Positions 36,988-51,128 of a stretch of DNA of 64,000 nucleotides are shown one piece after another. The DNA is from Candidatus Zixiibacteriota bacterium (lineage in GTDB: Bacteria; Zixibacteria; MSB-5A5; GN15; JAAZOE01), in assembly GCA_036480375.1 (NCBI GenBank), contig JAZGGI010000003.1:141892-205891 (forward strand). The letters run 5' to 3'. Each line of letters begins with the position of its first letter. Within the stretch, counting starts at the first letter, position 1. The notes under the pieces are model-generated. The model did no database searches and had not been told where the DNA came from. It saw only the letters and a program-made list of their open reading frames with translations. A program made the position numbers and the translations under genes.

Positions 36988-38709
36988 TTATGATAATTGT
37001 GTAATTGATTCATGTCCTTGATTATCCATTTCGGCATTGAGATTCGCCTTATCGTATTTTTTGAGATATAGACAAAACTCGGTACCCAATCCGAGCTCGG
37101 ATGATGCCTCAACACGCCCTTCCATCGCGTCGGCCAGGCGTGAGACTATTGATAACCCGAGTCCGGAGCCGGATTTTTTTGTAGAATGAAAAGGCATAAA
37201 GACCTTCCCCAGTTGCTCAAAAGGAATGCCCGGCCCGGTATCTCGAACGGATAATTTTATTTCTCCGTTATCCAATTCGGCATCCGTTTCAATTTGAACG
37301 CTGCCCCCGGAATCACCTATGGCTTCGAATGCATTTACTAGAAGATTTATCAGCATCTGCTTTAAGTAGTCTTCATCCCCGGAAATGTAAACTACATTTT
37401 CATGCGAAATGGGCCGGATGCGAATATTATTTCTATAAGACGGGTGACGACGAGCTACTTCAATCACTTCCGAAATAAGCCCGAGAATCTCTACCTTTCG
37501 CAATTCAAGGCGATTGATACATGCGTAGAGAAGAAAGTCGGAAAGGATTTTGTTCAGCCGGGTTGATTCCTTGATAATTAATGAAAGCAGTTTATCATTA
37601 TCGCCCTCAAGATATAAAGAATTCTTGAGAACCTCCACCGATCCGGAGATTGATGCCAGGGGATTTCTAATCTCATGAGCAATGCAGGCCGACAATTCAC
37701 CGATGGCGGCCATTTTATCGGCCTGCCTTATTCTTTGCTCAAACATTTTCGCTTCGGTTAAATCCTGAAAGATGGCAATCACTCCGCGCGTATCAAATTT
37801 CTCATCATAAAGAGTCGAGGTCGATAAACCGATCGGGACCTCTGTGCTGTCGCCGCGTTTTATAACAAATTCAGAACGCGACAATCGTTGCTGGGAATTC
37901 AGGACAGCCATTAGATTTTCGCTGAGAGGTGTCAATTGATTTACGAAAATTCCACGACAATGCTTTCCGGAAACTTCCGCTTCACTCAATCCCAAAATTG
38001 ATTCGGCGGTTCGATTAAAATAGACGATTTCACCATCCTGATCAATCGTTACCAAACCACAATTCAAATGCCAGAGAATATCCCCGGTTTCCAGTCTTGC
38101 CTTTTTGAGGGCAGCCGAAGCCGAGTCGAGCTCAATACCCTTGGATTGCAGCTTTTCGGCGAGATACCCGGCAATAAAGGCAACCAGGTAGAATATCAAA
38201 ATATGCAAAAAGGTGGAATAAAAATGCGCGTCATCGGCATTAAAAAAACTCCCGCCCAACGGTTGCGAAAACAGGTTTTCCTGAACCGGAAGATTTATAT
38301 TTATCCCGGTGACAAAAGCAAAAGTAAGACTTGCGCAAGTAGCGATTAACAACGTTCCGACCAGGCGATAGACCATGGCCGACGAAACGATCGTAAGTAA
38401 AAACAGTATTGAAAACGGCGAATAGAGACTCCCCGTCGAATATACAATGCCCGCCTCATTGACGATTTCAGCCACAAACGTCAGCGCGATTAGAACCCGA
38501 AACAGCAGTCGATAGTCGGTACGGCGCAGGAATACCTGGGAAATCAAAGCCGCCAGGGTAACGAAGCAATACAAATAAAATGAAGTCTGAGTATATGAAG
38601 GAAACCCAAGCCATCCAACGATAGCCCAGAATATAAGGCAAAAATTCATCAGCCGCAACGGCGCAAACCAGCCAACATTAATCCCGGGATATGTCTGTGA
38701 TAGACTCAT
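36988..38709 (-). CDS. PilS-like sensor histidine kinase (polytopic N-terminus, PAS, HisKA, HATPase)
   Basis: About 6 TM segments, a PAS segment, H-box CIAHEIRNPLASISGS, N/G boxes (NLLVNAFEA, DTGPGI, GSGLGLS). Lies directly downstream of pilC. No response regulator is adjacent. Confidence 0.8.
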   Translation of the reverse strand: MSLSQTYPGINVGWFAPLRLMNFCLIFWAIVGWLGFPSYTQTSFYLYCFVTLAALISQVFLRRTDYRLLFRVLIALTFVAEIVNEAGIVYSTGSLYSPFSILFLLTIVSSAMVYRLVGTLLIATCASLTFAFVTGININLPVQENLFSQPLGGSFFNADDAHFYSTFLHILIFYLVAFIAGYLAEKLQSKGIELDSASAALKKARLETGDILWHLNCGLVTIDQDGEIVYFNRTAESILGLSEAEVSGKHCRGIFVNQLTPLSENLMAVLNSQQRLSRSEFVIKRGDSTEVPIGLSTSTLYDEKFDTRGVIAIFQDLTEAKMFEQRIRQADKMAAIGELSACIAHEIRNPLASISGSVEVLKNSLYLEGDNDKLLSLIIKESTRLNKILSDFLLYACINRLELRKVEILGLISEVIEVARRHPSYRNNIRIRPISHENVVYISGDEDYLKQMLINLLVNAFEAIGDSGGSVQIETDAELDNGEIKLSVRDTGPGIPFEQLGKVFMPFHSTKKSGSGLGLSIVSRLADAMEGRVEASSELGLGTEFCLYLKKYDKANLNAEMDNQGHESITQLS

Positions 38710-38710
38710 A

Positions 38711-38738
38711 AGAAAAAGGCGGGCCGACCGGCCCGCCC
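38711..38738 (-). terminator. GC-rich hairpin + U-tract between pilC and the kinase gene
   Basis: The minus strand reads GGCGGGCC-gguc-GGCCCGCC followed by TTTTTCT, ending 2 nt before the kinase ATG. Confidence 0.65.
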
Positions 38739-38745
38739 AATCCGC

Positions 38746-39942
38746 TTAGATTTTTCCTATGATGTCGAACATCGGTAAATACATCGCAATCAAAATACCG
38801 CCAATAATAATACCCATAAATACAATTACCACTGGTTCAATAATCGATGTCAGAGCCGTCACCGCGGCGTCCACTTCCTCGTCATAAAAATCGGCAATCT
38901 TGTTTAACATCTCATCCAATCCGCCCGTTTTTTCACCGACTGAAATCATCTGCGTTACCATCGGAGGAAATACGCCGGTTTCCTTCAAAGGAGCGGTAAT
39001 TGTATCACCTTCGGCAATGGATAAGACTGATTTTTTGATAGCGTCATGAATTACTCTATTTCCGGCCGTTTTGGCGGTAATATCAAGCGCTTCCAGGATC
39101 GAAACACCGGATGAGAGCAAGGTTCCCAGGGTTCTCGAAAACCTTGAAATCGCTGATTTCTTGAGAAGTGTACCCAAAATGGGAAACGCCAGAAAAACCT
39201 TATCGGTATTATACCTGCCTTTGGGCGTTTTGACGTAAAGCTTATAGCCGACAATAAGAGCGATTATGGCGCCTATAATATGCATAAACCTTGTTTCCAG
39301 AAAATTCGATATTCCCAAAATGACTTGAGTCGGTCCCGGCAATTCCGACCCGAGACCTTCAAACATTTTGGCAAACACGGGTACGACGAAAGTCAGCATA
39401 GCGATCGTAACACCGGTCGCCACGACGCTGATAACGATCGGATACATCATCGCCCCGCGAACCTTGCGTATCAAGGCATCGGCTTTTTCACGATAAACCG
39501 CCAGCCTGACGAGAATCACATCAAGAGCGCCGCCCATCTCGCCCGCTTCAACCATATTGGTATATAGCTGATCGAATACTTTGGGATGACGGGCCAAAGC
39601 GTCAGACAAAGTTGTGCCGCCCTGCACCGATTCCTTTACTTTATTTAACACTTTGCGCAGTTCAACCGAATCGACCTGAGAAGCAAGAATCTCCAGACAT
39701 TGAATCATCGGCAAGCCGGCACCGATCATGGTCGCGAATTGACGAGTAAAGCGGGAAATATCCTGCTTTTTTATTCCGGTACCGAATTTGATCGCTATAT
39801 CCGCCGGTTTTTTGCGAATACTGGAAACAAGTATTCTATTCTGCCTGAGAACTCTTTCCATATCCTGCTGATTCTTAGCCTTTAGCGTACCGCTGACCTG
39901 GGCTCCGGCCAATGTCTTACCTTTATATTCAAATTCCGGCAT
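38746..39942 (-). CDS. pilC: type IV pilus assembly platform protein PilC (GspF family)
   Basis: Two T2SSF repeats, three TM segments, about 400 aa. Start MPEFEYKGKTLAGAQVSGTLKA is typical. Confidence 0.92.
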   Translation of the reverse strand: MPEFEYKGKTLAGAQVSGTLKAKNQQDMERVLRQNRILVSSIRKKPADIAIKFGTGIKKQDISRFTRQFATMIGAGLPMIQCLEILASQVDSVELRKVLNKVKESVQGGTTLSDALARHPKVFDQLYTNMVEAGEMGGALDVILVRLAVYREKADALIRKVRGAMMYPIVISVVATGVTIAMLTFVVPVFAKMFEGLGSELPGPTQVILGISNFLETRFMHIIGAIIALIVGYKLYVKTPKGRYNTDKVFLAFPILGTLLKKSAISRFSRTLGTLLSSGVSILEALDITAKTAGNRVIHDAIKKSVLSIAEGDTITAPLKETGVFPPMVTQMISVGEKTGGLDEMLNKIADFYDEEVDAAVTALTSIIEPVVIVFMGIIIGGILIAMYLPMFDIIGKI

Positions 39943-39954
39943 ACAATTTACTCC

Positions 39955-41031
39955 TTACGCAAACGCGGGCGACGGTTGTCTGGATAAAAGCTCATTCAAT
40001 TCCTGCGGATTGGAACTGCGTCCCGTCGCGTCATTCATGGTTATTTTCCCCGTACGATATAATTCGGCCAGAGACATATTCATCGTGCGCATCCCATACT
40101 TCTGCCCTGACTGAATCATACTATATATTTGATGAATCTTATCGTCGCGAATAATGGCCCGGATGGCGGGCGTACATACCATCACTTCCAATGCCAGCGC
40201 TCGCCCGCCGCCCATGCGGGGGATTAATTGCTGGGCAACAACCGCCTGCAGTGTGAACGATAAGGTAACCCGAATCTGTTCCTGTTGATTGGTCGGGAAT
40301 ACATCGATAATGCGGTTTATTGATTCGGCGGCCGAGTTGGTATGCAGAGTCGCGAATGCGAGATGGCCGGTTTCTGAAATATTCAAAGCCGCCTCGATTG
40401 TTTCCAGATCTCTCATTTCACCGACAAGAACAACATCGGGATCTTCACGCAAAGCGTATTTTAACGCCGACGCGAACGATGGCGTATCGCTGAATACCTC
40501 TCTTTGATTTACAAGACAGTTATTATGCCGATGCAAATATTCAATCGGATCTTCAACAGTCAAAATATGTTCATGCCGCTCACGATTAATCTTGTCAATA
40601 ATAGCAGCCAATGTAGTCGATTTGCCCGAACCGGTCGGACCGGTTACGAGAACCAAACCGCGCGGTAAATTCGCCATTTCGGAAACTACTTTCGGCAATC
40701 CCAGTTCTTCAAAAGTTTTTATCTTAAATGGAATTTGCCTTATGGCCACGGCAATGTTTCCCCGTTGACGAAAAACATTGCAACGAAATCGACTCAAACT
40801 CTCAAGGCCAAACGACAAATCCAGCTCATTGTTTTCTTCGAATTTTTTCCGCTGTTTCTCATTCATGATGCTATAAGCCAGCTTCAAAGTCATTTCAGCA
40901 GTCAAAACTTCATGCTCGGTCCGAACCAAATTTCCATCAATTCTGGTCATAGGCGGAATCCCAACCGTAAGATGCAAATCGGAGGCCCCCTTCTTAACCA
41001 TTTCCTGGAGAAGATCTCTCAAGGTTACCAT
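39955..41031 (-). CDS. pilT: type IV pilus retraction ATPase PilT
   Basis: Walker A GPTGSGKSTT, Asp box, the AIRAIIRDDKIHQI PilT motif. About 358 aa. Confidence 0.93.
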   Translation of the reverse strand: MVTLRDLLQEMVKKGASDLHLTVGIPPMTRIDGNLVRTEHEVLTAEMTLKLAYSIMNEKQRKKFEENNELDLSFGLESLSRFRCNVFRQRGNIAVAIRQIPFKIKTFEELGLPKVVSEMANLPRGLVLVTGPTGSGKSTTLAAIIDKINRERHEHILTVEDPIEYLHRHNNCLVNQREVFSDTPSFASALKYALREDPDVVLVGEMRDLETIEAALNISETGHLAFATLHTNSAAESINRIIDVFPTNQQEQIRVTLSFTLQAVVAQQLIPRMGGGRALALEVMVCTPAIRAIIRDDKIHQIYSMIQSGQKYGMRTMNMSLAELYRTGKITMNDATGRSSNPQELNELLSRQPSPAFA

Positions 41032-41261
41032 GTTATCTCCTAAAATAAAGCAACTAAATAAATAGCGGAATTGCGCCTCTATCGTATCATTAATTTTATC
41101 GGTAAATCAATAGAAAATCTTAAGTGACACCGATTTAAAACAATAATAATAAGCTGTTGTGCTTAAACAAGTTGGGTAAAGTTTCCGGCATGACATTTTT
41201 AAGAGGCTTAATTCTTATTCTCAATAATTATTGATGGATTGTTAAAAGGAATTTCGGTCTT

Positions 41262-42959
41262 TTACGTACCCGTCACGGCGAAGACTTCTTTGAGACTGAT
41301 CAAGCCGTTCATCATCTTATCAAGCGCGGCCATACGCAATGTCAGCATGCCCTCTTCAATAGCCTCGTTTCGAATTTGAACATCGGTGGCATTTTTCAGT
41401 ATTAAATCTTCAATTGCCGCCGAAACCGGCATAACTTCGAAAATACCGGCTCGACCCGATTGACCGGTGCCGTTACAATCATTGCAGCCGGGCGATTCAA
41501 AAACATCCCGGGTTGTGATGCAGCTCTCGGGAACGTCGAGGTTCTGAATATCTTCATCGGTGAGAGTATATTCTCTCTTGCAATTGAGACATAATTTTCT
41601 CGTCATACGCTGAGCCATAATCAACCGCGTTGCCGAAGATACCAGATAGTTGGGTATGCCCATATCGATAAGTCGATTTATCGATGAGGGCGCGTCGTTG
41701 GTATGCAGGGTCGAAAATACAAGGTGTCCGGTTAGCGCCGCGCGGATGGCGATCTCGGCCGTCTCACCATCTCGAATCTCACCGACCATGATTACGTCGG
41801 GGTCCTGTCGCAGGAAAGACCGTAGCGCTCTGGCGAACGTCAGACCAATATCCGATTTGACGGCTATCTGATTAATTCCGTCGAAGTTAAACTCCACCGG
41901 GTCTTCGGCGGTCATGATATTAATATCTTCAGTATTGATCTGTTTCAAAGCCGAATATAGCGTCGTCGTCTTACCGGAACCGGTCGGCCCGGTTACCAGA
42001 ATAATCCCGAACGGTAGATGAATAGCGTTATCGAATCGTTTCAGCGAATATTCGGTAAATCCGAGCCTGGTCATATCGACCATCAAAGCCTGCGGATCCA
42101 AAATTCGCATAACCACCTTCTCGCCAAAAATGGTCGGCAACACCGAAACACGCAGGTCAACGGTGCGATTATCGAGTTTAATTTTGATGCGTCCGTCCTG
42201 GGGCAAACGCCGTTCGGAAATATCCAGCTCCGACATGATTTTTATACGAGATATAATCGCCGCCCGGTATTTGAACGGCAGCGGATCCATCTCCTTAAGG
42301 TTACCATCGATTCGATAGCGAACGCGAATCCGTCTTTCGTACATTTCGATATGAATATCGGATGCCCCGGTACGGACCGCTTCTTTGATAATTGAATCAA
42401 CCAGGCGAACCAACGGCTTGTCCTGAACCGCCGACTGCAAATCGCTTTCGCTGAGCTCGTCCTCGGAAACGGAAACGACTTCGAGTTCTTCTTCATCTTC
42501 AAGACCTTTGAGGATTTCGCTAACCCCGCTATCCGAACGATAATATTTTTCAATTGCCTTGTTGATGGAATTTTCGGGAGAAATAACCGGCTGTACATTG
42601 CATCCGGTGATAAATTTAATGGCGTCAAGGACATAAACATTATTAGGGTCGGCAATGGCGACGATGAGAGTTTTCTTGAGCTTTGAAACGGCGATAACAT
42701 TAAATTTCCGGGCAATATCACTGGGAATCAGGGCAACAATTTCAGGGTTTAACTCTACGTCAGCGAGACGTAATGACCCCATATTCAATTGCTTGCTGAT
42801 AAAATCGGAAAGCTCTTCCTCGCTGCCAATAGCTCCCACTTTGACGAGAGCTTCGCCAAAATGTTCCTTATTTTGCTCTTTCATGGCCAGCGCTTTTTCC
42901 AATTGATCTTCGGAAATTTTGCCGGCCTTTACCAGCATGGCTCCTAATTCAGCGGACAT
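41262..42959 (-). CDS. pilB: type IV pilus extension ATPase PilB (GspE family)
   Basis: T2SSE_N repeats at the N-terminus (LGAMLVKAGKISEDQLEKALAMKEQ...FGEALVKVGAI). Walker A GPTGSGKTTT. Tetracysteine motif CLNC...CNDCNGTG. Confidence 0.92.
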   Translation of the reverse strand: MSAELGAMLVKAGKISEDQLEKALAMKEQNKEHFGEALVKVGAIGSEEELSDFISKQLNMGSLRLADVELNPEIVALIPSDIARKFNVIAVSKLKKTLIVAIADPNNVYVLDAIKFITGCNVQPVISPENSINKAIEKYYRSDSGVSEILKGLEDEEELEVVSVSEDELSESDLQSAVQDKPLVRLVDSIIKEAVRTGASDIHIEMYERRIRVRYRIDGNLKEMDPLPFKYRAAIISRIKIMSELDISERRLPQDGRIKIKLDNRTVDLRVSVLPTIFGEKVVMRILDPQALMVDMTRLGFTEYSLKRFDNAIHLPFGIILVTGPTGSGKTTTLYSALKQINTEDINIMTAEDPVEFNFDGINQIAVKSDIGLTFARALRSFLRQDPDVIMVGEIRDGETAEIAIRAALTGHLVFSTLHTNDAPSSINRLIDMGIPNYLVSSATRLIMAQRMTRKLCLNCKREYTLTDEDIQNLDVPESCITTRDVFESPGCNDCNGTGQSGRAGIFEVMPVSAAIEDLILKNATDVQIRNEAIEEGMLTLRMAALDKMMNGLISLKEVFAVTGT

Positions 42960-43116
42960 TAATGTCTCTCCGGTGATGCATGTATACTTTCCTGTAAATG
43001 TGCCCTGTATATAAATCCGCGGAACGCGGGCGGGATCAGGGGGCGATGCGCTAAACTAATATATCAACGCCGCGCCTTCCCTGCCGCGGCGGCCGCGATT
43101 TGCTTTCTGCTCAGGT

Positions 43117-43605
43117 TCAATCCTTAAATATATCATCCAGCTTATCGCCCGCCGAGGCAGCAAAATCGGCTGACACTTCCGGATGCTCCTGGTGGGAACG
43201 ATCCGAAATTTGTGTAAACACTTTGGCCAACTCTTCCGATGCTTCCTTGGAGTACAGGCGGACCATACCTATTGTTGTGCGATCGTCAAAAATCACAACC
43301 ATTATCGAACGCTCGCCCACGATTGACATGTGGATATGGTCTTTCTTGCCCTGATGAAACAAGACCGAAAATTCAGATTCTCCAACCAGTCGAGCGATCT
43401 CTTTGGTTGAAGCAAACGAACCGGCCAGTAGCGCCGCCAGGGCGGTCGTATCCAGGGAGTGCGTAAATCCCTGGCGCGTGATGAGGTGGCCGTCCTTATC
43501 AACCAATAGGGCGCATTTCGCTTCCGCGCCCTTCAAAAGTTTGGTCAATAAAGAATCAATCCGCTCGATCTCTTCCTCATATAATATCAGACTATCATCA
43601 CTCAC
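43117..43605 (-). CDS. mglB: MglB (Roadblock/LC7 GTPase-activating partner of MglA)
   Basis: Collinear with my recollection of Myxococcus MglB: LYEEEIERI..., ALLVDKDGHLITRQG, DTTALAALLAGSF, FHQGKKDHIHMSIVGERSIMVVIFDDRTTIGMVRLYSKEASEEL, and an acidic C-terminal DKLDDIF. Confidence 0.88.
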   Translation of the reverse strand: MSDDSLILYEEEIERIDSLLTKLLKGAEAKCALLVDKDGHLITRQGFTHSLDTTALAALLAGSFASTKEIARLVGESEFSVLFHQGKKDHIHMSIVGERSIMVVIFDDRTTIGMVRLYSKEASEELAKVFTQISDRSHQEHPEVSADFAASAGDKLDDIFKD

Positions 43606-43621
43606 GGGAATTTCCTCCCCT

Positions 43622-44845
43622 TTATTTTAATCCAAACAATCGCTTGAAGAATGACCACTTTTGGGGTTTTTCGGTCGATTCGGCTCGCAGCGAAGGCGCC
43701 ATTTGAGGATGTGAAGACTGAACCTTTTCTTCATCCCCGATGCTCGGATTATTAGTTTCGGCTTTGGTTATTTCTAATTTATCACTTTTCGTTTGACGCG
43801 TTACTTTCATTCGTTCTTCATCTTCCGTCGTATTGCCCGGGAACGGCCTGTAAGCGGGCTTGGGAGGCGGAGCTTTTTCTATATTTTGCTCCACCGGCTC
43901 GCGCTGAAATTCAACGGGCTGTTCCGGGGATTCGGGCACGGGCGGCACAACCGTCTGCTGCGTGACCTGCTCCAATGGAACCGACGTATTATGAGTCATA
44001 GACGCGGCCGGAGCGACCGGCTGGGGTATCGGGTGGACAGGTTTTTCAGGAACGATGGAGGCCGGCGCTGGTGCTGGTTGAGCAATCGGTTCCGGAGGCG
44101 GTTGAACAGGCCCGGATTGAGGTAACGGGGCCGGCTGTGCCTGAGGCTGAGGAATCGGCGGAGGCGGTGATTGAGGAATAGCTTGAGGCTGAAGAGCCGA
44201 TGCGGCGTTTGCCTTAGGTTGAGCCGGGGCTGCGGCAGGTTGGCTGGGCTGGGTGCCTGCTCCAGCTGATTTGGCCTTATCCAATACCAACTTCAAAATA
44301 CACTTCAGGGTGTCAAAGACGCCAAAACCTTCTGTCGCCGAAGCACAAAATTCAGGCCAGTTGCAGGCATTTAGAGCGGCATGAAGCTCTTCTGCGCTTA
44401 ACACTCCGGGTAAGTCCTGTTTATTATATTGAATGACAAACGGCATTTCATCGATCTTGAAATCGTATTCGGCCAGGTTTTCCTTAAGATTATTCAGTGA
44501 TTCGATATTTTCATCCAGTTTATCCGGTTGCGAATCGGCCACAAAAACAACTCCGTCAGCACCGCGTAAGACGAGCTTTCTGGTGGCATTGTAATAAACC
44601 TGTCCAGGTACCGTATAGAGCTGAAATTTGGCGTCAAAACCGTTTATCTTTCCAATATTAATTGGTAGGAAATCAAAATACAAAGTCCGGTCAGAGTCCG
44701 TTGCCAGCGAAATCAACTTACCCTTCGTATCAGACGGCACCTTGGCATGCACATATTGCAAATTTGTCGTTTTACCCGATAAACCGGGACCGTAATAGAC
44801 GATTTTACAGCTAACTTCTCTCGATGCGTAATTTATTGATACCAT
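43622..44845 (-). CDS. mglA: MglA-type Ras-like GTPase with Pro/Gln-rich C-terminal extension and terminal amphipathic helix
   Basis: The first ~195 aa are near-collinear with MglA (INYASREVSCKIVYYGPGLSGKTTNLQYV...TDRTLYFDFLP...YTVPGQVYYNATRKL...VFVADSQ...QYNKQDL). A ~210-aa low-complexity P/Q/A tail follows and ends in KWSFFKRLFGLK. Confidence 0.9.
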   Translation of the reverse strand: MVSINYASREVSCKIVYYGPGLSGKTTNLQYVHAKVPSDTKGKLISLATDSDRTLYFDFLPINIGKINGFDAKFQLYTVPGQVYYNATRKLVLRGADGVVFVADSQPDKLDENIESLNNLKENLAEYDFKIDEMPFVIQYNKQDLPGVLSAEELHAALNACNWPEFCASATEGFGVFDTLKCILKLVLDKAKSAGAGTQPSQPAAAPAQPKANAASALQPQAIPQSPPPPIPQPQAQPAPLPQSGPVQPPPEPIAQPAPAPASIVPEKPVHPIPQPVAPAASMTHNTSVPLEQVTQQTVVPPVPESPEQPVEFQREPVEQNIEKAPPPKPAYRPFPGNTTEDEERMKVTRQTKSDKLEITKAETNNPSIGDEEKVQSSHPQMAPSLRAESTEKPQKWSFFKRLFGLK

Positions 44846-44855
44846 GTATCTTCTC

Positions 44856-45206
44856 TTAGTAAACTGCTTCCTGATTATTTAATTTACTTATCGCGTTTTT
44901 GATTTCCAGCCGGACTAATCCAATATTGACTTCCGGCTCAGTAATAACTACCAAAACACCCATTTCCACTTCACTGAAAAATAACTTGGCGTTGTCAGCT
45001 TCAACCGTAACCTGCTTCAAGGGCGGCGACTGGAGCCGATCAAGCGATTTTTGCACATTGGAAATAACCGACGCAGCCAGGGCGCCGATCGCATCCTCTT
45101 CAATTTGAGTGTTGAGGTCGGCCGCGATAACAATTCCATCGTTACCAACAACCATACTGCCGATTATTCCGCTCGTCTTGTTTAGTCCCTCAAGAATTTG
45201 ATACAT
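44856..45206 (-). CDS. stand-alone Roadblock/LC7 domain protein (MglC-like paralog)
   Basis: GIIGSMVVGNDGIVIAADL...AIGALAASVISNV...GVLVVITEPEVNIGLVRLEIKNAI fits the Roadblock pattern. The internal ATG at 45206 is preferred over 45251 because it gives less overlap with the upstream gene. Confidence 0.75.
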   Translation of the reverse strand: MYQILEGLNKTSGIIGSMVVGNDGIVIAADLNTQIEEDAIGALAASVISNVQKSLDRLQSPPLKQVTVEADNAKLFFSEVEMGVLVVITEPEVNIGLVRLEIKNAISKLNNQEAVY

Positions 45207-46158
45207 ATTGATCCTCCACCCTGACAAACAAAGCCGGGCTGTATCGTTCATTGATATATTTTCTGATCATATCCGCAGCCTGAGCCATTCGAATATGAAT
45301 GGTCTCATCTATATTTTCTTCAGTCATAACCATCAAGATAAATCTCTCTATCCGACGCATAATAATACGCTTATTATTTGTCGTGATATCCAGCTTACTG
45401 GGATTTCCTACCGGACTAAAGTGATTCAATAATCTTCGATTTTCATTTTCAATAATGATCGCGGCCGGAGCCCACAATTCTATATCTTCATCACAGCGAC
45501 TAAAATTAGCCAGAGTAAGACCTTCTTCATCTATAAGGAGCGACATCTTAACCGCGGCTGATTCTCCGATATACTGCACAGCCCTCTCCAGTTGATTATC
45601 GCCATCCGCTTGTGGGGTCGATGTAACTTCAAATATCTGCTTATCGGTCTCCATTTCACTGAAACTTTGCGACTGTAAAGGGGCAATAGGCTCGGTGATT
45701 TCAGAGGAAACAGTCTCTTTCTCTTCAATATGAGGTTCAAAAACGAATTTTTTCGGCCTTTCAGGATTCAAACTGGATGCTAAATGCAAATACGCCGGGC
45801 GTAAAACAAAAGGAGCTGAAACTACATGAAGTATTATGGCCGGTAAATATTTGCCCATTCCGAGAGAAAAAGCAACCGAGCTATCGAGTCCATACATTAT
45901 TATAATAGCCAGGCCAAACGCTGCCCCCAATCCCATCCGAAACACCATTGTTAGCGCCGAACCAATCAGAATAGTTATCAGCGGAATCTCTCTGCGGAAG
46001 GAATATAAAACGAAACCGTAGAACGCCATCTCATAGAGCATATATAAGGCCGAAGCCGATAATAACGGCAATCCCAATTTATTGGGGAAAATAACCATCG
46101 GTATCACTACCAAAATCAGCGATGCGAGCAGTATAAGACTTTTAATATTCTTTTCCAT
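45190..46158 (-). CDS. polytopic membrane protein with C-terminal Roadblock/LC7-like domain
   Basis: The N-terminal ~130 aa has 4-5 TM helices. A linker follows, then AVKMSLLIDEEGLTLANFS...NKRIIMRRIERFILMVMTEENIDETIHIRMAQAADMI, which has Roadblock-like topology. Confidence 0.65.
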   Translation of the reverse strand: MEKNIKSLILLASLILVVIPMVIFPNKLGLPLLSASALYMLYEMAFYGFVLYSFRREIPLITILIGSALTMVFRMGLGAAFGLAIIIMYGLDSSVAFSLGMGKYLPAIILHVVSAPFVLRPAYLHLASSLNPERPKKFVFEPHIEEKETVSSEITEPIAPLQSQSFSEMETDKQIFEVTSTPQADGDNQLERAVQYIGESAAVKMSLLIDEEGLTLANFSRCDEDIELWAPAAIIIENENRRLLNHFSPVGNPSKLDITTNNKRIIMRRIERFILMVMTEENIDETIHIRMAQAADMIRKYINERYSPALFVRVEDQYVSNS

Positions 46159-46173
46159 AACAGATCCTTTTGA

Positions 46174-47079
46174 TTACTGCGTCAGCCGTGGCAACAAATT
46201 AGTCAGTTTCATCTTAAGAGAACCGAGATTAATCGATTCGGTACATACTATTGCAAGTAATTTACCCTTTATGCCGGCCATATAATACAAGGATTTGGGT
46301 GTTTCTATCATCATTGATTGTAATTGCCCAAATCCGCCTTCTCGTATTTGAATAGTCGTAAACCGCGCCGTTTCAACAGCAAGGGCTCCGACCAAATCCG
46401 TATCGCCCGACACATTCCAAATCGATTCAATGACCAGACCGTCACTATTTATTATCAATACTCCCTCGATCCCGGGCGTCTCAACCAGGGCTCTCAACAT
46501 TTGCTTATAGTTCATATCGGCCTGAACCGGAGGAGCCTCTTGAGTTATTGTCTGTACCGGAGCCGGATGGTCGCGCTCTTGAGGTGTCGGTGAAATCCTT
46601 ACCGTAGGGGCTTGTGGAGCAGGCGCAACATGATTTGCATCCGGTTGATTTGGTTGTTCAAGGGGTATTTTCCGGGCAATTTCAAGCAGCTTCTTAATAT
46701 GCACATTTTCCGGATCACCCTCATGAAGCTTTTCCAGAAGGCGGCAGGCCTTATTAAACTCATTCTTATAAATAAATATTTCGGAAAGAAGCAATTCGGT
46801 AGTTCGGGTTTCGCCGTCAAGTTCCACTGCCCGCACCGCTTCAGTCTCGGCCCAATCGTACATCCCCTTATCCATGTTAATTTTCGCCATTACCAGATGA
46901 GCGGAACCATAATCGGGGTGGATTTTCAAACCATTCTGGCAAATGCGAAAGGCCTTATCAAGATCACCCTTTTTGCGATGAGCTTCCGCTAAAGCGGCGA
47001 AAATCTGTGAGCCGGGATTTTCATCCAATATCTTAGTACATTTGGCGATCCGTTCATCAATATTTGACCGATCAATCAT
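46174..47079 (-). CDS. TPR repeat protein with C-terminal Roadblock/LC7 domain
   Basis: About 3 TPRs (FAALAEAHRKKGDLDKAFRICQNGLKIHPDYGSAHLVMAKINMDKGMYDWAE...). A P/Q linker follows, then GIEGVLIINSDGLVIES...LVGALAVE...GKLLAIVCTESINLGSLKMKL. Confidence 0.72.
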   Translation of the reverse strand: MIDRSNIDERIAKCTKILDENPGSQIFAALAEAHRKKGDLDKAFRICQNGLKIHPDYGSAHLVMAKINMDKGMYDWAETEAVRAVELDGETRTTELLLSEIFIYKNEFNKACRLLEKLHEGDPENVHIKKLLEIARKIPLEQPNQPDANHVAPAPQAPTVRISPTPQERDHPAPVQTITQEAPPVQADMNYKQMLRALVETPGIEGVLIINSDGLVIESIWNVSGDTDLVGALAVETARFTTIQIREGGFGQLQSMMIETPKSLYYMAGIKGKLLAIVCTESINLGSLKMKLTNLLPRLTQ

Positions 47080-47171
47080 TATTATGATCCATCCAAAATT
47101 TTAATACCTTTGTTTAGCGCATATCCAATCGATAATAGCCTATGGCCTCATTCGAGTCAAACAAAAATACC

Positions 47172-47537
47172 CTAACCCAAAACGCGGCGGGCGTGCATAA
47201 GTCCGATGAGCCATAATATCACTGTTCCGACATATAGTATTCCGGCTATATCGAAAGTTAATGTGAACAACTTGAGTTCCTGAGCCAGGATTAACACCTG
47301 ACCTGCTGTCAGCGTAATGAATGAAATTATCCACATTTGACAGCCTTTAGCCAGAGCTCCCCCCTTGACCAATCCAAATAGTTTTATCGCTACTGACAGG
47401 CAGGCTAAGGCGCCTATCAGAATCACGATATTGATGATGGCCGGTATGCTTCCCAAAACATTAAAATCGGCGGCAAACGCCGATTCGGCCATAATCATCG
47501 TCAACGGCAATATCCCAAGTCCAGGTTTATACTTCAT
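47172..47537 (-). CDS. small membrane protein (hypothetical; signal peptide + 3 TM)
   Basis: Hydrophobicity pattern only. ATGA start/stop overlap with the upstream DUF4388 gene suggests co-translation. Confidence 0.55.
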   Translation of the reverse strand: MKYKPGLGILPLTMIMAESAFAADFNVLGSIPAIINIVILIGALACLSVAIKLFGLVKGGALAKGCQMWIISFITLTAGQVLILAQELKLFTLTFDIAGILYVGTVILWLIGLMHARRVLG

Positions 47538-48745
47538 GAGTCACCCGATATCATTTTTATGGTTCTCTCCGCTTTTCTGATGGAATAGTAGAAATTATCA
47601 TCAAGACGGAATTTCTTTACAAGTTCTCTTCGCATAGCCAATGGTTCGGAAATTTCTTTTTTGACTTTCCCAACCGCGTTGCGAAAGGCTCCGTGTCCAA
47701 ATTGCATAAATATATATTCAAGCTGTTCATGCAACATATCTTCCAGCATGGATAGAAGTCGGTGCATCCGTACCTTTTCCGGGATTTTCTTAACTTCCTG
47801 TAAAAATCTCTCCAGCGACGGCCCCGATTCGGTATTTATATCACACCCGGGGAAAAACACCAATAATCCTTGTCTGAAGCTTGATATAAATTTGTTATAC
47901 CCGGGATTGGTCGTCCCGACTACTTCCTCAATTACCTTGCGGGTCCTCAGAAAACAAGTGTTGTAGAGTCTAAAGATAATTCCCAAAATTATTTCTTCTT
48001 CATCCTCATCCGGTCCGATATTATCATTGGCGGTTTTACCGGCCCCCTCGACGAGCGAATTCAAAATGAGTCGATACAATGCCCGGCAGGTAGGAAATTC
48101 ACCTATCGGAGAAGCCTCGATTATTTCCGGTAACGTTCGTTCTCCGCTTATCAACGTCAATATTTTAAACTCATCGAGGGATAAAGTAATCTCATCTGAA
48201 TTAACTTTAGGAATTAGGCGCACTCGCAAAAGAATATTATTGGGCGGGAGAACTTTTTGTATTTCGAGCCATTCGTCGATCCTCCGCGTGCCTTCCATGA
48301 TGATATTCATAGTTGACAAATTAACCAGGAATGAGGCGTTTTGCGGAGATTCCCCTTCAGCGAATGAAAAATCGCCCTCGACCCAGCTGAAAAGATTATA
48401 GACAATTTCCTCGATCTGCATTTGCAGGCATTCGGAAACTTCATCCTTATCAAACAGCTGCATATCTATAAGAGTAGCTCCCAGGGCTCGGCCGGAAGAT
48501 TTATGGAGTGCGATCGCGCGTTCTAAATCTTTCTTATTGATTTTGCCACGCTTTAATAGCAAATTTCCAAGAAGATCTTCATTCGCGTTTACCGAAGAAG
48601 CGTATATAATATTGCCTTCCGAGAACGCGATTTCTTTTTTGCGCGACCCCGTCATTACTGTTAGTACACCTGTTTTTTTTCCGGTAGACAGCAATTGCAG
48701 TACATCGGAAAACGATACCGTCTTTAGGTTGCCTGTTAGTCCCAT
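47534..48745 (-). CDS. DUF4388 (PATAN-like) domain protein
   Basis: The N-terminus GNLKTVSFSDVLQLLSTGKKTGVLTV...IAFSEGNIIYASS...LLGNLLLKRGKI...LFSWVEGDFSF matches the DUF4388 pattern. The C-terminal ~270 aa has no motif I recognise. Confidence 0.72.
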   Translation of the reverse strand: MGLTGNLKTVSFSDVLQLLSTGKKTGVLTVMTGSRKKEIAFSEGNIIYASSVNANEDLLGNLLLKRGKINKKDLERAIALHKSSGRALGATLIDMQLFDKDEVSECLQMQIEEIVYNLFSWVEGDFSFAEGESPQNASFLVNLSTMNIIMEGTRRIDEWLEIQKVLPPNNILLRVRLIPKVNSDEITLSLDEFKILTLISGERTLPEIIEASPIGEFPTCRALYRLILNSLVEGAGKTANDNIGPDEDEEEIILGIIFRLYNTCFLRTRKVIEEVVGTTNPGYNKFISSFRQGLLVFFPGCDINTESGPSLERFLQEVKKIPEKVRMHRLLSMLEDMLHEQLEYIFMQFGHGAFRNAVGKVKKEISEPLAMRRELVKKFRLDDNFYYSIRKAERTIKMISGDS

Positions 48746-48890
48746 ATCGCCTTAGCTGTTAATATGTTAGACTGCACTAATTTAAAATGCACGTAAACCA
48801 ATATTTCTTTCTTTTTATCGGGATGTAGGTCATATATCTTTACCGTTATATTGGGCAGATTGGTACAAAATATTGGAAATGACCAACACT

Positions 48891-51128
48891 TCAGGGGAAT
48901 ATCGTGATATTTGAACCTGATAAGATGATTCTGTCATTCATCCCGGGATATAATTCATCAAAGTCATTATCCTGCCATATCTTATAATATCTTTCATGTC
49001 TTTCAAAGAGAATTACCGCCTTATCGGTGTCATTTCGTAATAGTAATTCCGAAAGACTCTTATCACTATTTATAAAAATTATATACCATTTGCAGTGATT
49101 AATTAAACTCTCAGGCAATCGCTTCAGATCCGCCGGTGAATCGGCTATTATAATTTCCGATGAATCGGATATTTGAATTAAGGCGACATTAGGACCAATT
49201 TGAATTTCATAAATCGCCTCGTTTTCGACCATGCGTATTTTTTCGGCAATCGACCAGATTGATGGGTTGGAAAAATTAAATTCATTGACCGGATAGAGAA
49301 CGATGTCAGGGCCAAATTCGGATCCTTCCGCCATCCTCTGCCAAGTCCGATATTTTGGCTCGAACAATATAAATATTTCCGGAAACGGTTCGTCCCGATC
49401 GGTTAAATATGGTATTAGATTGGCGCTGAAATCATCATAACGAGAAGCCCGGCTCTGATGAAATATGGCCAATCTATTCGTGGAATTTATAATTACGCTC
49501 TGGGTCGCTCCCCGATTATATATCTCAATCGATGCTATTGGTTTTTCCTTGGCAAATATGCCCTCCCCGAAGAAGCATACTCCCCCCAGTAAGATTGAAA
49601 AAACCAATAAGCGCCGTAGTGATTTTGAAGTTATTGCGAAAAATACCATCGTCAAAATTATCAATGCAAAAATAGAATACTCGCCCTTGACTTCTGCCAT
49701 TCTTATAGCTGAAAACTCCCAGCTCCCGAACCAAATTACCAACTCATTAATTATGATGAGTAGTCGATCAAGCAAAGCTCCGGCAATTATCGCCAGCGGC
49801 GGGAAAATTAAATTCACCGTAAGAAGAATCATTATGCCGATAACCGCTACCGAAACCAGAGGTACGATTAGTAAATTGGAAAACACCGTCACCAGTGACA
49901 TCTCCCCAAAATAAAAGAGAGTTATCGGAGCCGAAACCAAAGAAGCGATAAATGAGCAACCGGTTACTAATAACAAATAGCGATAAGCTGAAGAGATTGA
50001 ATAACCCACCAGGAGGGAATTAACCTTTGGCAGAAACAAAATTAATCCCCATGTCACGGCAAATGATAATTGAAAACCAATATCAAATAAATTGGCAGGA
50101 TCATATAATATCAAAAGACATGCCGCGGCGGCGATAATGTTGTTTAGATCAGCCCGGCGGTATAAAAATCTGACGAAAATTATTAGGATGGCCATAACCG
50201 AAGCGCGAATGACCGAAGGTTGATTGTTTGATAGATGTGAAAAGACGACAACAACTGATATGAGAATCAATAACCTGGTAGTTTTTTTAAATGCGAATAC
50301 CTTAAGAAAAACTGAGATTACGATCAGTACCAAAGCGACATTCGACCCCGATACAGCCAATAGATGTAAAGTTCCCGTCCGCCGGAAAGCCTGATAAATA
50401 TCCTCAGGGATATCGCGGGTTTCTCCTATTAAAAACCCCGAGGCCAGAGCGTTTGGAATTTCGGTCAGGTTAGATTGGAAACAATCAAGCACCCATTTTC
50501 TGAGTGATGAAATTGCCTTCCCCCAGACATTGCTTTCTTTCTCAGATTTAAGTATTAAAACCGGATTTGATATATAAACAATTCCCCTGATGCCCTTATT
50601 CGCCAGGTATTCCCGATAGTCAAATTGCCCCGGATAATTTCCCCCGGAAGGGTTGTATAGTCTTCCCGAAAATGAGACTGCATCCCCCAGCATAAACTCA
50701 GTCGTTTCTCTTCGAACGTTTACCAGTATTGACCCGGATGCCGGTCTGACCGAATCCCGAACTATGATTGAATCGGCCCGGCACGTAAGAATTGTCTTAT
50801 GCTGTTTTAAAACCGGCCATTTTTCTATTTTCCCAAAAATCCTCACAGAGCCGGAACCAGACACGTATTGTCCAATGTCATCCGCCGCGAAATACTGATA
50901 TTTTTGAGATGCCATTAAATAAGATCCGAACAATAAAAACAAAATCAGTGAGATGGAAAAATACCGGGCATCCAATCGAAAATATGACGTTACCAATAAT
51001 AACATTGCTCCGATTAAAATAACGACCATTAACGGCATACTGAATACCACATACCTACCCAATATTGTCCCGGCAAAGATACCGGTCAGGGCAAAAACAG
51101 CGGGAAATCGAAAACTAAACGACGTCAT
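48891..51128 (-). CDS. comEC: ComEC/Rec2 family DNA internalisation channel protein (degenerate MBL domain)
   Basis: N-terminal DUF4131-like part, then a polytopic Competence domain (TGTLHLLAVSGSNVALV..., IRASVMA..., GFQLSFAVTW). The C-terminal domain lacks the HxHxDH-type motif. Confidence 0.85.
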   Translation of the reverse strand: MTSFSFRFPAVFALTGIFAGTILGRYVVFSMPLMVVILIGAMLLLVTSYFRLDARYFSISLILFLLFGSYLMASQKYQYFAADDIGQYVSGSGSVRIFGKIEKWPVLKQHKTILTCRADSIIVRDSVRPASGSILVNVRRETTEFMLGDAVSFSGRLYNPSGGNYPGQFDYREYLANKGIRGIVYISNPVLILKSEKESNVWGKAISSLRKWVLDCFQSNLTEIPNALASGFLIGETRDIPEDIYQAFRRTGTLHLLAVSGSNVALVLIVISVFLKVFAFKKTTRLLILISVVVVFSHLSNNQPSVIRASVMAILIIFVRFLYRRADLNNIIAAAACLLILYDPANLFDIGFQLSFAVTWGLILFLPKVNSLLVGYSISSAYRYLLLVTGCSFIASLVSAPITLFYFGEMSLVTVFSNLLIVPLVSVAVIGIMILLTVNLIFPPLAIIAGALLDRLLIIINELVIWFGSWEFSAIRMAEVKGEYSIFALIILTMVFFAITSKSLRRLLVFSILLGGVCFFGEGIFAKEKPIASIEIYNRGATQSVIINSTNRLAIFHQSRASRYDDFSANLIPYLTDRDEPFPEIFILFEPKYRTWQRMAEGSEFGPDIVLYPVNEFNFSNPSIWSIAEKIRMVENEAIYEIQIGPNVALIQISDSSEIIIADSPADLKRLPESLINHCKWYIIFINSDKSLSELLLRNDTDKAVILFERHERYYKIWQDNDFDELYPGMNDRIILSGSNITIFP

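What the first reader, a model, noticed from the sequence alone, without database searches (positions are those of the whole stretch)
43625..44260. MglA with a ~210-aa Pro/Gln-rich linker ending in a MinD-like membrane-targeting helix
Canonical MglA is a soluble protein of about 195 aa. This ortholog is collinear with MglA through ...FDTLKCILKLVLDKAKS. It then continues as a low-complexity P/Q/A-rich segment (e.g. PQAIPQSPPPPIPQPQAQPAPLPQSGPVQPPPEP). It terminates in KWSFFKRLFGLK, which closely resembles the E. coli MinD C-terminal amphipathic membrane-targeting sequence (GFLKRLFGG). This predicts a membrane-tethered MglA on a long flexible leash, which would change how polarity is established.
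Basis: partly seen in the sequence, partly recalled or inferred. Interest (0 to 1): 0.65.

Follow-up and report, generated by a model that had tools for sequence, protein, structure and literature searches.

The report
MglA GTPase with membrane-anchoring disordered tail
This gene encodes a bacterial Ras-like polarity switch (MglA) that carries a conserved 214-residue floppy tail ending in the same short membrane-binding helix motif as the cell-division protein MinD, so the switch is probably leashed to the cell membrane, an arrangement I found described in no paper for MglA.

Summary
Window 43622-44845 (- strand) is one uninterrupted 407-aa ORF. Residues 1-193 are a Group-1 MglA G domain (E=1e-78 to M. 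xanthus MglA). Residues 194-407 are a Pro/Gln/Ala-rich tail ending in KWSFFKRLFGLK.

It is not an assembly artefact:
- 119 of the 120 best database homologues are 332-421 aa long.
- 118 end in F-[FWLI]-[KR]-[KR]-L-F-G-x-x, typically KKR[GS]FFKRLFG[IL]K. E. coli MinD ends in KKGFLKRLFGG.
- Tail dN/dS is 0.39, against 0.012 for the G domain, and all indels are in frame.

The tail is more than a linker. It holds two further invariant islands, RPFPG (333-337) and MAPS (382-385).

More distant relatives keep a basic and aromatic amphipathic C-terminus with a different sequence. Planctomycetota relatives replace it with a true transmembrane helix. This favours lipid binding over protein docking.

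The gene sits in a 13-gene array conserved across Zixibacteria and Ignavibacteria: PATAN, three Roadblock-domain proteins (one membrane-anchored), MglA, MglB, PilB, PilT, PilC and PilS.

Membrane binding itself is inferred, not shown. The main MglA survey excluded proteins over 240 aa, and I found no paper describing this form. Verdict: a real, widespread, undescribed variant of a known switch.

The parts
43622..44845 (-). Whole gene: long-tailed MglA, 407 aa plus stop codon
   Evidence: Single ORF. The identical product is called in the public record GCA_044344285.1. 120 homologues have the same architecture.
44267..44845 (-). G domain, residues 1-193. Group-1 MglA motifs: P-loop GPGLSGKTT, intrinsic Arg finger R53-T54, G3 TVPGQ (78-82), G4 NKQD (141-144)
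   Evidence: phmmer against PDB: 5ymx E=1.3e-78 and 3t12 E=7.7e-71. Pfam Arf hit. These residues are invariant in alignment A1. dN/dS is 0.012.
43868..44266 (-). Hypervariable Pro/Gln/Ala-rich disordered segment, residues 194-326
   Evidence: Composition. No conserved columns, and length is variable among orthologues: whole tail 92-229 aa, median 196. AF2 gives no secondary structure and pLDDT mostly below 65. dN/dS is 0.38.
43835..43849 (-). Conserved island 1: R333-P-F-P-G337
   Evidence: R, P, P and G are invariant in A1 and A2. RP[FY]PG is present in 119 of 120 homologues, 58-93 aa from the C-terminus. AF2 pLDDT is 87-88 in the tail-only model.
43769..43828 (-). Predicted helix, residues 340-359, directly after RPFPG
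   Evidence: AF2 helix at 340-356 in the full-length model (pLDDT ~75-78) and at 340-359 in the tail model. The sequence is only subfamily-conserved (N-T-x-E-D-E-x-x-M).
43691..43702 (-). Conserved island 2: M382-A-P-S385, followed by a basic stretch
   Evidence: M382 and P384 are invariant. A MAPS-like motif is present in 114 of 120 homologues. Function unknown.
43625..43660 (-). C-terminal MinD-like amphipathic membrane-targeting motif KWSFFKRLFGLK, residues 396-407
   Evidence: 118 of 120 homologues match F-[FWLI]-[KR]-[KR]-L-F-G-x-x at the C-terminus. It matches E. coli MinD KKGFLKRLFGG. muH is 0.49 against 0.48 for MinD. AF2 gives a helix at 399-404.
43117..43605 (-). MglB-like Roadblock/LC7 protein (162 aa), 16 nt downstream; the presumed GAP
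   Evidence: Pfam Robl_LC7 E=1.4e-13. NCBIfam MglB (Thermus type) E=3.4e-27, full length but below the curated cut-off. It directly follows the MglA match in L001-L024.
44856..45251 (-). Roadblock/LC7 protein directly upstream (131-aa ORF; the public call uses 116 aa)
   Evidence: Pfam Robl_LC7 E=2.9e-11. Gene call. Syntenic.
45190..46158 (-). 322-aa membrane protein with a C-terminal Roadblock-like domain
   Evidence: No Pfam hit. Hydrophobic N-terminal segments. hhalign of its C-terminal alignment against the Roadblock family gives 97.8% probability, E=6.9e-13. Detected in 22 of the 24 loci L001-L024; no hit in L022 or L023.
46174..47079 (-). TPR + Roadblock protein (301 aa)
   Evidence: Pfam TPR_19/TPR_2 and Robl_LC7. 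Detected in 23 of the 24 loci; L015 is cut off upstream.
47534..48745 (-). PATAN (DUF4388/PatA_N) domain protein (403 aa)
   Evidence: Pfam DUF4388 E=1.7e-34. Detected in 23 of the 24 loci; L015 is cut off upstream.
38746..42959 (-). Type IV pilus motor genes directly downstream: PilB (41262-42959), PilT (39955-41031), PilC (38746-39942)
   Evidence: Pfam T2SSE+MshEN, T2SSE and T2SSF. Same order wherever the contig extends that far in L001-L024.

Best explanation
The gene encodes a Group-1 MglA molecular switch whose C-terminus has been extended by a ~200-residue intrinsically disordered region. The extension ends in a MinD-type polybasic amphipathic helix.

Shown here:
- The G domain has all the catalytic hallmarks of MglA, and an MglB-type partner is encoded next to it.
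- The tail is translated, conserved in architecture and hypervariable in sequence, apart from three islands: RPFPG, MAPS, and the terminal KKR[GS]FFKRLFG[IL]K.
- The terminal island is helical and amphipathic to the same degree as the MinD membrane-targeting sequence.

Inferred:
- The terminal helix lies in the inner leaflet of the cytoplasmic membrane, helped by the flanking Lys/Arg residues binding anionic lipids.
- The GTPase is therefore held on a flexible leash. A random-coil estimate for 202 residues gives about 11 nm r.m.s. end-to-end distance and about 70 nm contour length.
- This restricts MglA to two-dimensional diffusion along the membrane, close to the type IV pilus bases whose PilB/PilT/PilC genes follow in the same array, and close to a membrane-anchored Roadblock protein.
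- The two internal islands are probably short linear docking motifs for partners in the module.
- Unlike M. xanthus MglA, whose GDP form is diffuse in the cytoplasm, this protein would be membrane-associated in both nucleotide states or exchange rapidly with the membrane. The nucleotide switch would then control which membrane-proximal partners it binds.
For: G domain:
- E=1e-78 to M. xanthus MglA; R53, T54 and TVPGQ are invariant.

The tail is real and under selection:
- 119 of 120 homologues are long, and 118 of 120 carry the terminal motif.
- in-frame indels; dN/dS 0.39 in the tail against 0.012 in the G domain.
- the same product is called in the public record.

Disorder:
-.

MinD likeness:
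- MinD ends KKGFLKRLFGG.
- muH 0.49 against 0.48, the top value in the tail, with net charge +2 to +9 in the last 16 residues of relatives.
- helix at 399-404.

The physico-chemical property is conserved beyond the sequence:
- diverged relatives end in SLFGWLKRLGRK, GFLWRWIQKFAGRR, KGLFGGLFGKEK, KGFFAWLFGKR and GFIKKLFNKD, although their linkers differ completely (acidic, E/K-rich or Q/P-rich).
- Planctomycetota relatives L033, L051, L066 and L038 have a true transmembrane helix in its place.

Portability of the motif:
- it recurs as 5-8 internal copies in unrelated Sel1-repeat proteins.

Context:
-.

Baseline behaviour of canonical MglA:
- PMC4085708.
Against: No experiment here shows lipid binding.
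- In MinD, a single copy of this helix is too weak for stable binding and needs ATP-driven dimerisation (established knowledge; not tested here). MglA is monomeric in the solved complexes.
- The window protein has fewer flanking basic residues (PQKW instead of KKKR) than most of the family.
- The hydrophobic moment of an 11-mer is a crude measure. Another 11-mer in the Pro-rich region scores 0.48 although it cannot be helical.
- The full-length AF2 model was poor (mean pLDDT 58.7, and even the first 96 residues of the G domain scored low). It therefore says nothing about whether the tail docks back on the G domain.
- The invariant RPFPG and MAPS islands are unexplained by a pure leash model.
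Confidence: 0.7

Rival explanations
1. The terminal FFKRLFG peptide, and perhaps RPFPG and MAPS, is a protein-docking motif rather than a lipid binder. Candidate receptors are the TPR domain of the co-conserved TPR-Roadblock protein, PilB/PilT, or the G domain's own allosteric pocket, as with the MglB C-terminal helix in M. xanthus.
For: A TPR-Roadblock gene, two further Roadblock genes and MglB are co-conserved with the tailed MglA in L001-L024. TPR domains commonly bind C-terminal peptides (general knowledge). The near-invariance of the motif (118 of 120) is stricter than most lipid-binding helices need. PMC6785124, listed, describes allosteric regulation of MglA in an MglA-MglB complex.
Against: - The same motif is the proven lipid-binding helix of MinD.
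- It occurs internally and in multiple copies in unrelated proteins, so it does not depend on a free C-terminus.
- In diverged relatives the sequence changes but basic and aromatic amphipathicity stays.
- Planctomycetota replace it with a transmembrane helix.
- Amphipathic termini persist in L025, L026, L037 and L042, where no TPR-Roadblock or membrane-Roadblock neighbour is detected.
Confidence: 0.15
2. The tail acts mainly as a multivalent disordered scaffold or condensate-former, like the Pro-rich region of PopZ or the FtsZ C-terminal linker plus peptide. The terminal helix would play only a minor or regulatory part, for example being masked or exposed according to nucleotide state.
For: The region is long, low-complexity and Pro/Gln-rich. 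It has two invariant internal short motifs at a constrained distance from the C-terminus (58-93 aa). A predicted helix follows RPFPG.
Against: The composition of the variable part is not conserved at all. It is acidic in L020, E/K-rich in L024 and Q/P/G-rich in L025. That fits a spacer better than a specific condensate-forming sequence. This reading is largely compatible with the membrane-anchor reading rather than opposed to it.
Confidence: 0.12
3. The long ORF is an assembly or sequencing artefact that fuses MglA to downstream sequence.
For: None found. It was considered only because canonical MglA ends at ~195 aa.
Against: - 119 of the 120 best homologues, from independent JGI, ENA, NCBI and Logan assemblies, share the architecture.
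- So do 23 species-representative genomes.
- Indels against L083 are in frame, and tail dN/dS is 0.39.
- MglB starts only 16 nt after the stop codon.
Confidence: 0.01

Closest known systems
MglA (Group 1) of Myxococcus xanthus and Thermus thermophilus
   Same: The G domain is collinear with E=1e-78 and 8e-71. The P-loop, the intrinsic arginine finger R53, the TVPGQ G3 motif and an adjacent mglB-like gene are all shared. It is linked to the type IV pilus ATPases, as MglA is functionally in M. xanthus (PMC4085708).
   Different: Canonical MglA is a single ~195-aa domain, and its GDP form is diffuse in the cytoplasm (PMC4085708). This protein has 214 extra residues with three conserved islands and a predicted membrane anchor. 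No RomR/RomX-like gene was seen in the array, although I did not search for one specifically.
MinD C-terminal membrane-targeting sequence (E. coli ...EEEKKGFLKRLFGG)
   Same: It lies at the extreme C-terminus. It has a Lys-rich lead-in and then G/S-F-[FL]-K-R-L-F-G, matching at 6-7 of 8 positions. The hydrophobic moment is equal.
   Different: The host protein is a Ras-like GTPase, not a ParA/MinD ATPase. The motif is separated from the fold by ~200 disordered residues instead of following it directly. There is no evidence for the nucleotide-driven dimerisation that makes MinD binding cooperative.
Eukaryotic Ras/Rho/Rab hypervariable region with polybasic stretch and lipid anchor
   Same: The logic is the same: small GTPase, then a sequence-variable flexible C-terminal region, then a basic patch plus a hydrophobic membrane anchor at the very end.
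   Different: This is an analogy only. The anchor here is a genetically encoded amphipathic helix (a transmembrane helix in Planctomycetota relatives) and not prenylation of a CAAX box. The spacer is 5-10 times longer. No GDI-like extraction factor is known.
FtsZ (GTPase domain, disordered C-terminal linker, conserved C-terminal peptide) and the FtsA C-terminal amphipathic helix
   Same: The architecture is globular NTPase, then a variable-length disordered linker, then a short conserved terminal peptide that mediates membrane attachment. Attachment is direct in some FtsZs (bioRxiv 10.1101/2023.08.29.555414, listed).
   Different: The fold is unrelated (tubulin-like). The FtsZ peptide usually binds adaptor proteins. 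FtsZ polymerises, which gives it avidity.
SofG, the MglA paralogue of M. xanthus
   Same: It is a Group-1 MglA-family GTPase that helps position PilB and PilT (PMC4316618, PMC4085708).
   Different: SofG is recruited by the bactofilin BacP, not by a membrane helix (PMC4085708). I have no evidence that it has the RPFPG, MAPS or FFKRLFG islands. MglB is not its GAP (PMC4316618).

Membership tests
MglA family, Group 1 (Wuichet & Sogaard-Andersen 2014, PMC4316618) | G3 motif TVPGQ instead of DxxGQ | tested here: met
   T78-V-P-G-Q82 is present and invariant in 53 aligned homologues. The criterion is taken from PMC4316618.
MglA family, Group 1 (Wuichet & Sogaard-Andersen 2014, PMC4316618) | Intrinsic arginine finger next to the conserved G2 threonine | tested here: met
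   R53-T54 (DRTLYFDF) is invariant and aligns with the same residues of 5ymx.
MglA family, Group 1 (Wuichet & Sogaard-Andersen 2014, PMC4316618) | Encoded within four genes of an mglB (Roadblock/LC7) gene | tested here: met
   An MglB-like gene lies 16 nt downstream (Robl_LC7 E=1.4e-13; NCBIfam MglB E=3.4e-27). The coupling is conserved in L001-L024.
MglA family, Group 1 (Wuichet & Sogaard-Andersen 2014, PMC4316618) | Single-domain small GTPase of 150-240 aa | tested here: not met
   The protein is 407 aa. That survey discarded sequences over 240 aa, so this form falls outside its operational definition although the G domain qualifies.
MglA family, Group 1 (Wuichet & Sogaard-Andersen 2014, PMC4316618) | GTP binding and hydrolysis stimulated by MglB | not testable with these tools
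   This needs purified proteins.
MinD-type C-terminal membrane-targeting sequence | Located at the extreme C-terminus of the protein | tested here: met
   The motif ends 2 residues before the stop codon in the window protein and in 118 of 120 homologues.
MinD-type C-terminal membrane-targeting sequence | Sequence K-K-G-F-L-K-R-L-F-G or a close variant | tested here: met
   Window K-W-S-F-F-K-R-L-F-G. Family K-K-R-G-F-F-K-R-L-F-G. E. coli MinD K-K-G-F-L-K-R-L-F-G.
MinD-type C-terminal membrane-targeting sequence | Forms a short amphipathic helix with a Phe/Leu face and a Lys/Arg face | tested here: met
   muH is 0.49 against 0.48 for MinD. AF2 gives a helix at 399-404. This is prediction only.
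MinD-type C-terminal membrane-targeting sequence | Binds phospholipid membranes and is sufficient to target a reporter | not testable with these tools
   This needs a GFP-fusion or liposome assay.
MinD-type C-terminal membrane-targeting sequence | Membrane affinity gated by nucleotide-dependent dimerisation of the host protein | not tested
   No multimer modelling was available. MglA is monomeric in the solved structures (one search lists the entries; stoichiometry is from PMC4316618).

The most novel reading that the evidence does not exclude
Long-tailed MglAs form an unrecognised class of membrane-anchored bacterial Ras-like GTPases with the layout G domain, disordered spacer, membrane anchor. 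The anchor is an amphipathic helix in Zixibacteria, Ignavibacteria, Fibrobacteria and Chitinivibrionia relatives, and a transmembrane helix in Planctomycetota. They would be the prokaryotic counterpart of the eukaryotic hypervariable region plus lipid anchor. In them, polarity of the type IV pilus machinery would be set by a two-dimensional reaction-diffusion system on the membrane, as with MinD or Cdc42, rather than by cytoplasmic diffusion and capture. The RPFPG and MAPS islands would act as docking sites for Roadblock, PATAN or pilus-motor partners.
Probability: 0.4. Interest if true: 0.75.

Novelty: new variant of a known kind. Interest (0 to 1): 0.6.

Why it matters
MglA is the model for how bacteria use a Ras-like switch to define a leading and a lagging cell pole. 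In that model the protein is soluble, and its pole-to-pole switching depends on free cytoplasmic diffusion of the GDP form.

A large natural family in which the same switch is leashed to the membrane changes this picture. The family covers at least two candidate phyla, and other phyla have parallel variants anchored by amphipathic helices or transmembrane helices.
- It would show that membrane anchoring of small GTPases by a variable C-terminal region is not a eukaryotic invention.
- It would give a natural experiment on how dimensionality (two-dimensional against three-dimensional diffusion) affects a polarity circuit.
- It points to two new short linear motifs and a membrane-anchored Roadblock protein as candidate parts of that circuit.

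It also exposes a blind spot. The reference survey of prokaryotic small GTPases filtered out everything longer than 240 aa.

Tried and rejected
- Full-length AlphaFold2 with a 53-sequence alignment. Mean pLDDT was 58.7, and the first 96 residues of a domain that certainly folds scored below 50. The cause is probably a shallow, near-identical alignment. The model cannot say whether the tail islands dock on the G domain, and I did not run a fold search on it.
- Tail profile against PDB sequences at E<=10. There were no hits, so there is no structural precedent for RPFPG or MAPS.
- Eisenberg-scale hydrophobic moment. It gave low, uninformative values (0.19-0.33) for both the query and MinD, because terminal Lys residues dominate. 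I replaced it with the Fauchere-Pliska scale.
- Tail profile against 1.84 billion representatives. Only 52 hits came back, most of them C-terminal fragments of the same family. This gives no family census, because full-length members collapse into few 50%-identity clusters. It did reveal the repeated motif in Sel1 proteins.
- DNA for the closest long relative, P0002, could not be fetched because the file is too large. dN/dS therefore rests on one pair, window against L083.
- BLASTP of the 322-aa protein's C-terminal half against the neighbouring Roadblock protein found nothing. Only profile-profile comparison showed the relationship. The Roadblock and TPR-Roadblock alignments in that call cross-recruit each other, so I disregard their 100% mutual score.
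- Five literature searches found no description of an MglA with a membrane-targeting tail. The library lacks most subscription-journal papers, so absence is not proof.
- A second MglA-like gene was sought in the window by tblastn and none was found. Whether the genome also has a short MglA elsewhere could not be tested.
- I briefly considered that the invariant M382 marks an internal start for a 26-aa peptide. The upstream sequence CACATCCTCAA has no Shine-Dalgarno-like element. I did not pursue it.
Full report
**1. What is in the sequence**

On the minus strand, 43622-44845 is a single ATG-initiated ORF of 407 codons. Residues 3-196 align without gaps to residues 3-196 of M. xanthus MglA (PDB 5ymx, E=1.3e-78). 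They also align to T. thermophilus MglA (3t12, E=7.7e-71).

All hallmarks of Group-1 MglA are present:
- the P-loop GPGLSGKTT;
- the intrinsic arginine finger R53 next to T54;
- the unusual G3 motif TVPGQ (criteria from PMC4316618; residues).

After ...FDTLKCILKLVLDKAKS the protein continues for 214 residues with 21.5% Pro, 11.7% Ala and 10.7% Gln. It ends in KWSFFKRLFGLK.

I read the E. coli MinD C-terminus from the MG1655 genome. It is EEEKKGFLKRLFGG.

**2. Is the fusion real?**

Yes, on three lines of evidence.
- The 120 best hits in a 5.8-billion-protein collection are 284-421 aa long. Of these, 119 are 332 aa or longer, and the remaining one (P0080, 284 aa) ends inside the tail. They come from independent JGI, ENA, NCBI and Logan assemblies. 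118 end in F-[FWLI]-[KR]-[KR]-L-F-G-x-x, usually KKR[GS]FFKRLFG[IL]K.
- A codon-level comparison with an independent contig (L083, 78% protein identity) shows only in-frame indels. dN/dS is 0.012 for the G domain and 0.39 for the tail. That is relaxed but still purifying selection on a translated region.
- The public record that holds this window (GCA_044344285.1, a 221.9-kb contig) calls the same 407-aa product.

**3. Anatomy of the tail**

An alignment of 53 family members shows a hypervariable stretch that varies in both sequence and length. The whole tail is 92-229 aa, median 196. Three islands interrupt it:
- R333-P-F-P-G337, with R, P, P and G invariant, present in 119 of 120;
- M382-A-P-S385, with M and P invariant, present in 114 of 120;
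- the terminal motif.

The distance from RPFPG to the C-terminus is constrained to 58-93 aa, while the upstream part floats.

AlphaFold2 on the tail alone gives pLDDT 87-88 around RPFPG, a helix at 340-359 and a short helix at 399-404 (FFKRLF). The full-length model predicts no structure for 196-339 but was of poor quality overall. So the tail is a disordered region carrying short linear motifs, not a featureless linker.

**4. The terminal motif as a membrane anchor**

- On the Fauchere-Pliska scale the best 11-mer of the window's terminus has a helical hydrophobic moment of 0.49. The MinD membrane-targeting sequence scores 0.48. The window value is the highest in the tail (mean 0.21, s.d. 0.11).
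- More persuasive is how the feature behaves across relatives found in species-representative genomes. Zixibacteria and Ignavibacteria (L001-L018) keep the MinD-like sequence.
- More diverged members keep a basic and aromatic amphipathic end with a different sequence: SLFGWLKRLGRK, KFNIFGWFKKSKK, GFLWRWIQKFAGRR, KGLFGGLFGKEK, KGFFAWLFGKR and GFIKKLFNKDNTQ. This holds although their spacers are acidic, E/K-rich or Q/P/G-rich.
- Planctomycetota relatives L033, L051 and L066 end in a genuine transmembrane helix (mean Kyte-Doolittle 1.6-3.0 over 19 residues). L038 has one ~60 residues before its end.
- Retention of the physical property while the sequence drifts, and replacement by a transmembrane helix, are what a lipid anchor predicts and what a specific protein-docking peptide does not.
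- A profile of the tail searched against 1.84 billion representatives also picked up unrelated Sel1-repeat proteins with 5-8 internal copies of KKGFFKRLFGK. The motif is therefore a portable unit that does not need a free C-terminus.

**5. Context**

The gene lies in a same-strand array: MurJ, ComEC, PATAN/DUF4388, a 121-aa ORF, TPR-Roadblock, a 322-aa membrane protein, Roadblock, long MglA, MglB-like, PilB, PilT, PilC, PilS. The order is conserved in 24 loci, L001-L024, wherever the contig extends far enough. Two of them (L022, L023) show no detectable match to the 322-aa protein. Nearly all of the loci are labelled Zixibacteria or Ignavibacteria.

Profile-profile comparison shows that the 322-aa protein has a Roadblock-like C-terminal domain behind hydrophobic segments (97.8%, E=7e-13). 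The module therefore has four Roadblock-domain proteins, one of them membrane-embedded, plus the type IV pilus motor.

The window organism is probably a zixibacterium. Its PilB, PilT and MglB are 81-86% identical to those of L001.

**6. Most likely mechanism**

- Shown: an MglA switch with an MglB-type partner; a conserved disordered tail; a MinD-like amphipathic terminus.
- Inferred: the terminal helix and adjacent basic residues bind the inner leaflet. This holds the G domain on a leash. A random-coil estimate for 202 residues (Rg = 0.19·N^0.6 nm) gives about 11 nm r.m.s. end-to-end distance, and the contour length is about 70 nm. That is enough to reach the cytoplasmic face of a pilus machine.
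[quoted passage not shown] Here the switch would act in two dimensions, near its likely effectors.
- Caveat: in MinD one such helix binds weakly and needs dimerisation (established knowledge). Attachment may therefore be transient, or depend on the polybasic flank. That flank is weaker in this particular protein (PQKW instead of KKKR).
- I put 0.70 on the membrane-anchor reading, 0.15 on a protein-docking peptide, 0.12 on a mainly scaffold or condensate role (largely compatible with the first) and 0.01 on an artefact.

**7. Comparison with what is known**

- By G-domain criteria this is a Group-1 MglA. By the operational size criterion of the reference survey (150-240 aa) it is not. That survey explicitly discarded longer sequences (PMC4316618), which probably explains why the form is undescribed.
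- The terminus meets every sequence-level criterion of a MinD-type membrane-targeting sequence. The functional criteria cannot be tested here.
- In logic it resembles the hypervariable region plus polybasic/lipid anchor of eukaryotic Ras, Rho and Rab. It also resembles the FtsZ layout of linker plus C-terminal peptide.
- Five literature searches found no report of an MglA with a membrane-targeting tail. The library is incomplete.

**8. Verdict**

It is enriched by two additional motifs, a conserved pilus-linked module, and parallel anchor types in other phyla. It is a new variant of a known kind. Interest is 0.6: it makes a concrete, cheaply testable prediction about a well-studied polarity switch and links bacterial and eukaryotic small-GTPase membrane biology. 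The key property, membrane binding, is still unproven.

Noticed in passing
L033, L051, L066, L038 (Planctomycetota loci; MglA-like gene starts at 8001, 7076, 8001 and 3307): MglA-like GTPases of 380-436 aa have a Pro/Ala-rich spacer followed by a true transmembrane helix. The helix is at the very C-terminus in three of them and ~60 aa before the end in L038. These are tail-anchored small GTPases.
   Followed up: partly
L041, L043, L050, L054, L056, L059, L079 (Fibrobacter spp.): Fibrobacter MglA homologues are 313-331 aa. Their tails end in a different conserved motif, DDEIELRPYVPKKK, which is not amphipathic (muH 0.11-0.23). Its function is unknown.
   Followed up: no
Proteins P0140 (1134 aa), P0156 (1070 aa), P0164 (307 aa): Sel1-repeat proteins carry 5-8 internal copies of KKGFFKRLFGK separated by long acidic linkers. 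A third protein, with a signal-peptide-like N-terminus, has 3 copies. The MinD-like motif is apparently reused as a repeated module.
   Followed up: no
window 45190-46158 (-): This 322-aa protein has no Pfam hit. It has hydrophobic N-terminal segments and a C-terminal domain that matches the Roadblock family by profile-profile comparison (97.8%, E=7e-13). It is a membrane-anchored Roadblock protein, detected in 22 of the 24 syntenic loci.
   Followed up: partly
window 36988-52689 (-) and L001-L024: The thirteen-gene order MurJ, ComEC, PATAN, orf121, TPR-Roadblock, TM-Roadblock, Roadblock, MglA, MglB, PilB, PilT, PilC, PilS is kept across Zixibacteria and Ignavibacteria MAGs wherever the contig is long enough. 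The 121-aa ORF (47172-47537) has no detectable family.
   Followed up: partly
window 44856-45251 (-) versus 45190-46158 (-): The 131-aa Roadblock ORF overlaps the upstream gene by 62 nt. The public gene call uses a 116-aa product that starts further in, so the first ATG is probably not the true start.
   Followed up: no
window 43625-44845 versus L083 229-1422: Synonymous divergence is lower in the tail (dS 0.49) than in the G domain (dS 0.95), although the tail evolves much faster at the protein level. Possible causes are compositional constraint on Pro/Ala/Gln codons or saturation. This is unexplained.
   Followed up: no
L024 (labelled Terriglobales) and L045 (labelled Bifidobacteriales): L024 carries most of the module (ComEC through PilB/PilT, without MurJ, orf121, PilC or PilS hits on a contig that ends early), with 60-75% identity in MglA, MglB and PilB. 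It is labelled Acidobacteriota. L045 carries a long MglA under an actinobacterial label. These are likely mis-binned contigs or mislabelled MAGs.
   Followed up: no
window (whole): The window is part of NCBI assembly GCA_044344285.1, contig JAZHCH014093322.1 (221,912 bp). JGI annotations of homologues call the protein 'signal recognition particle receptor subunit beta', which is a misannotation of an MglA G domain.
   Followed up: no
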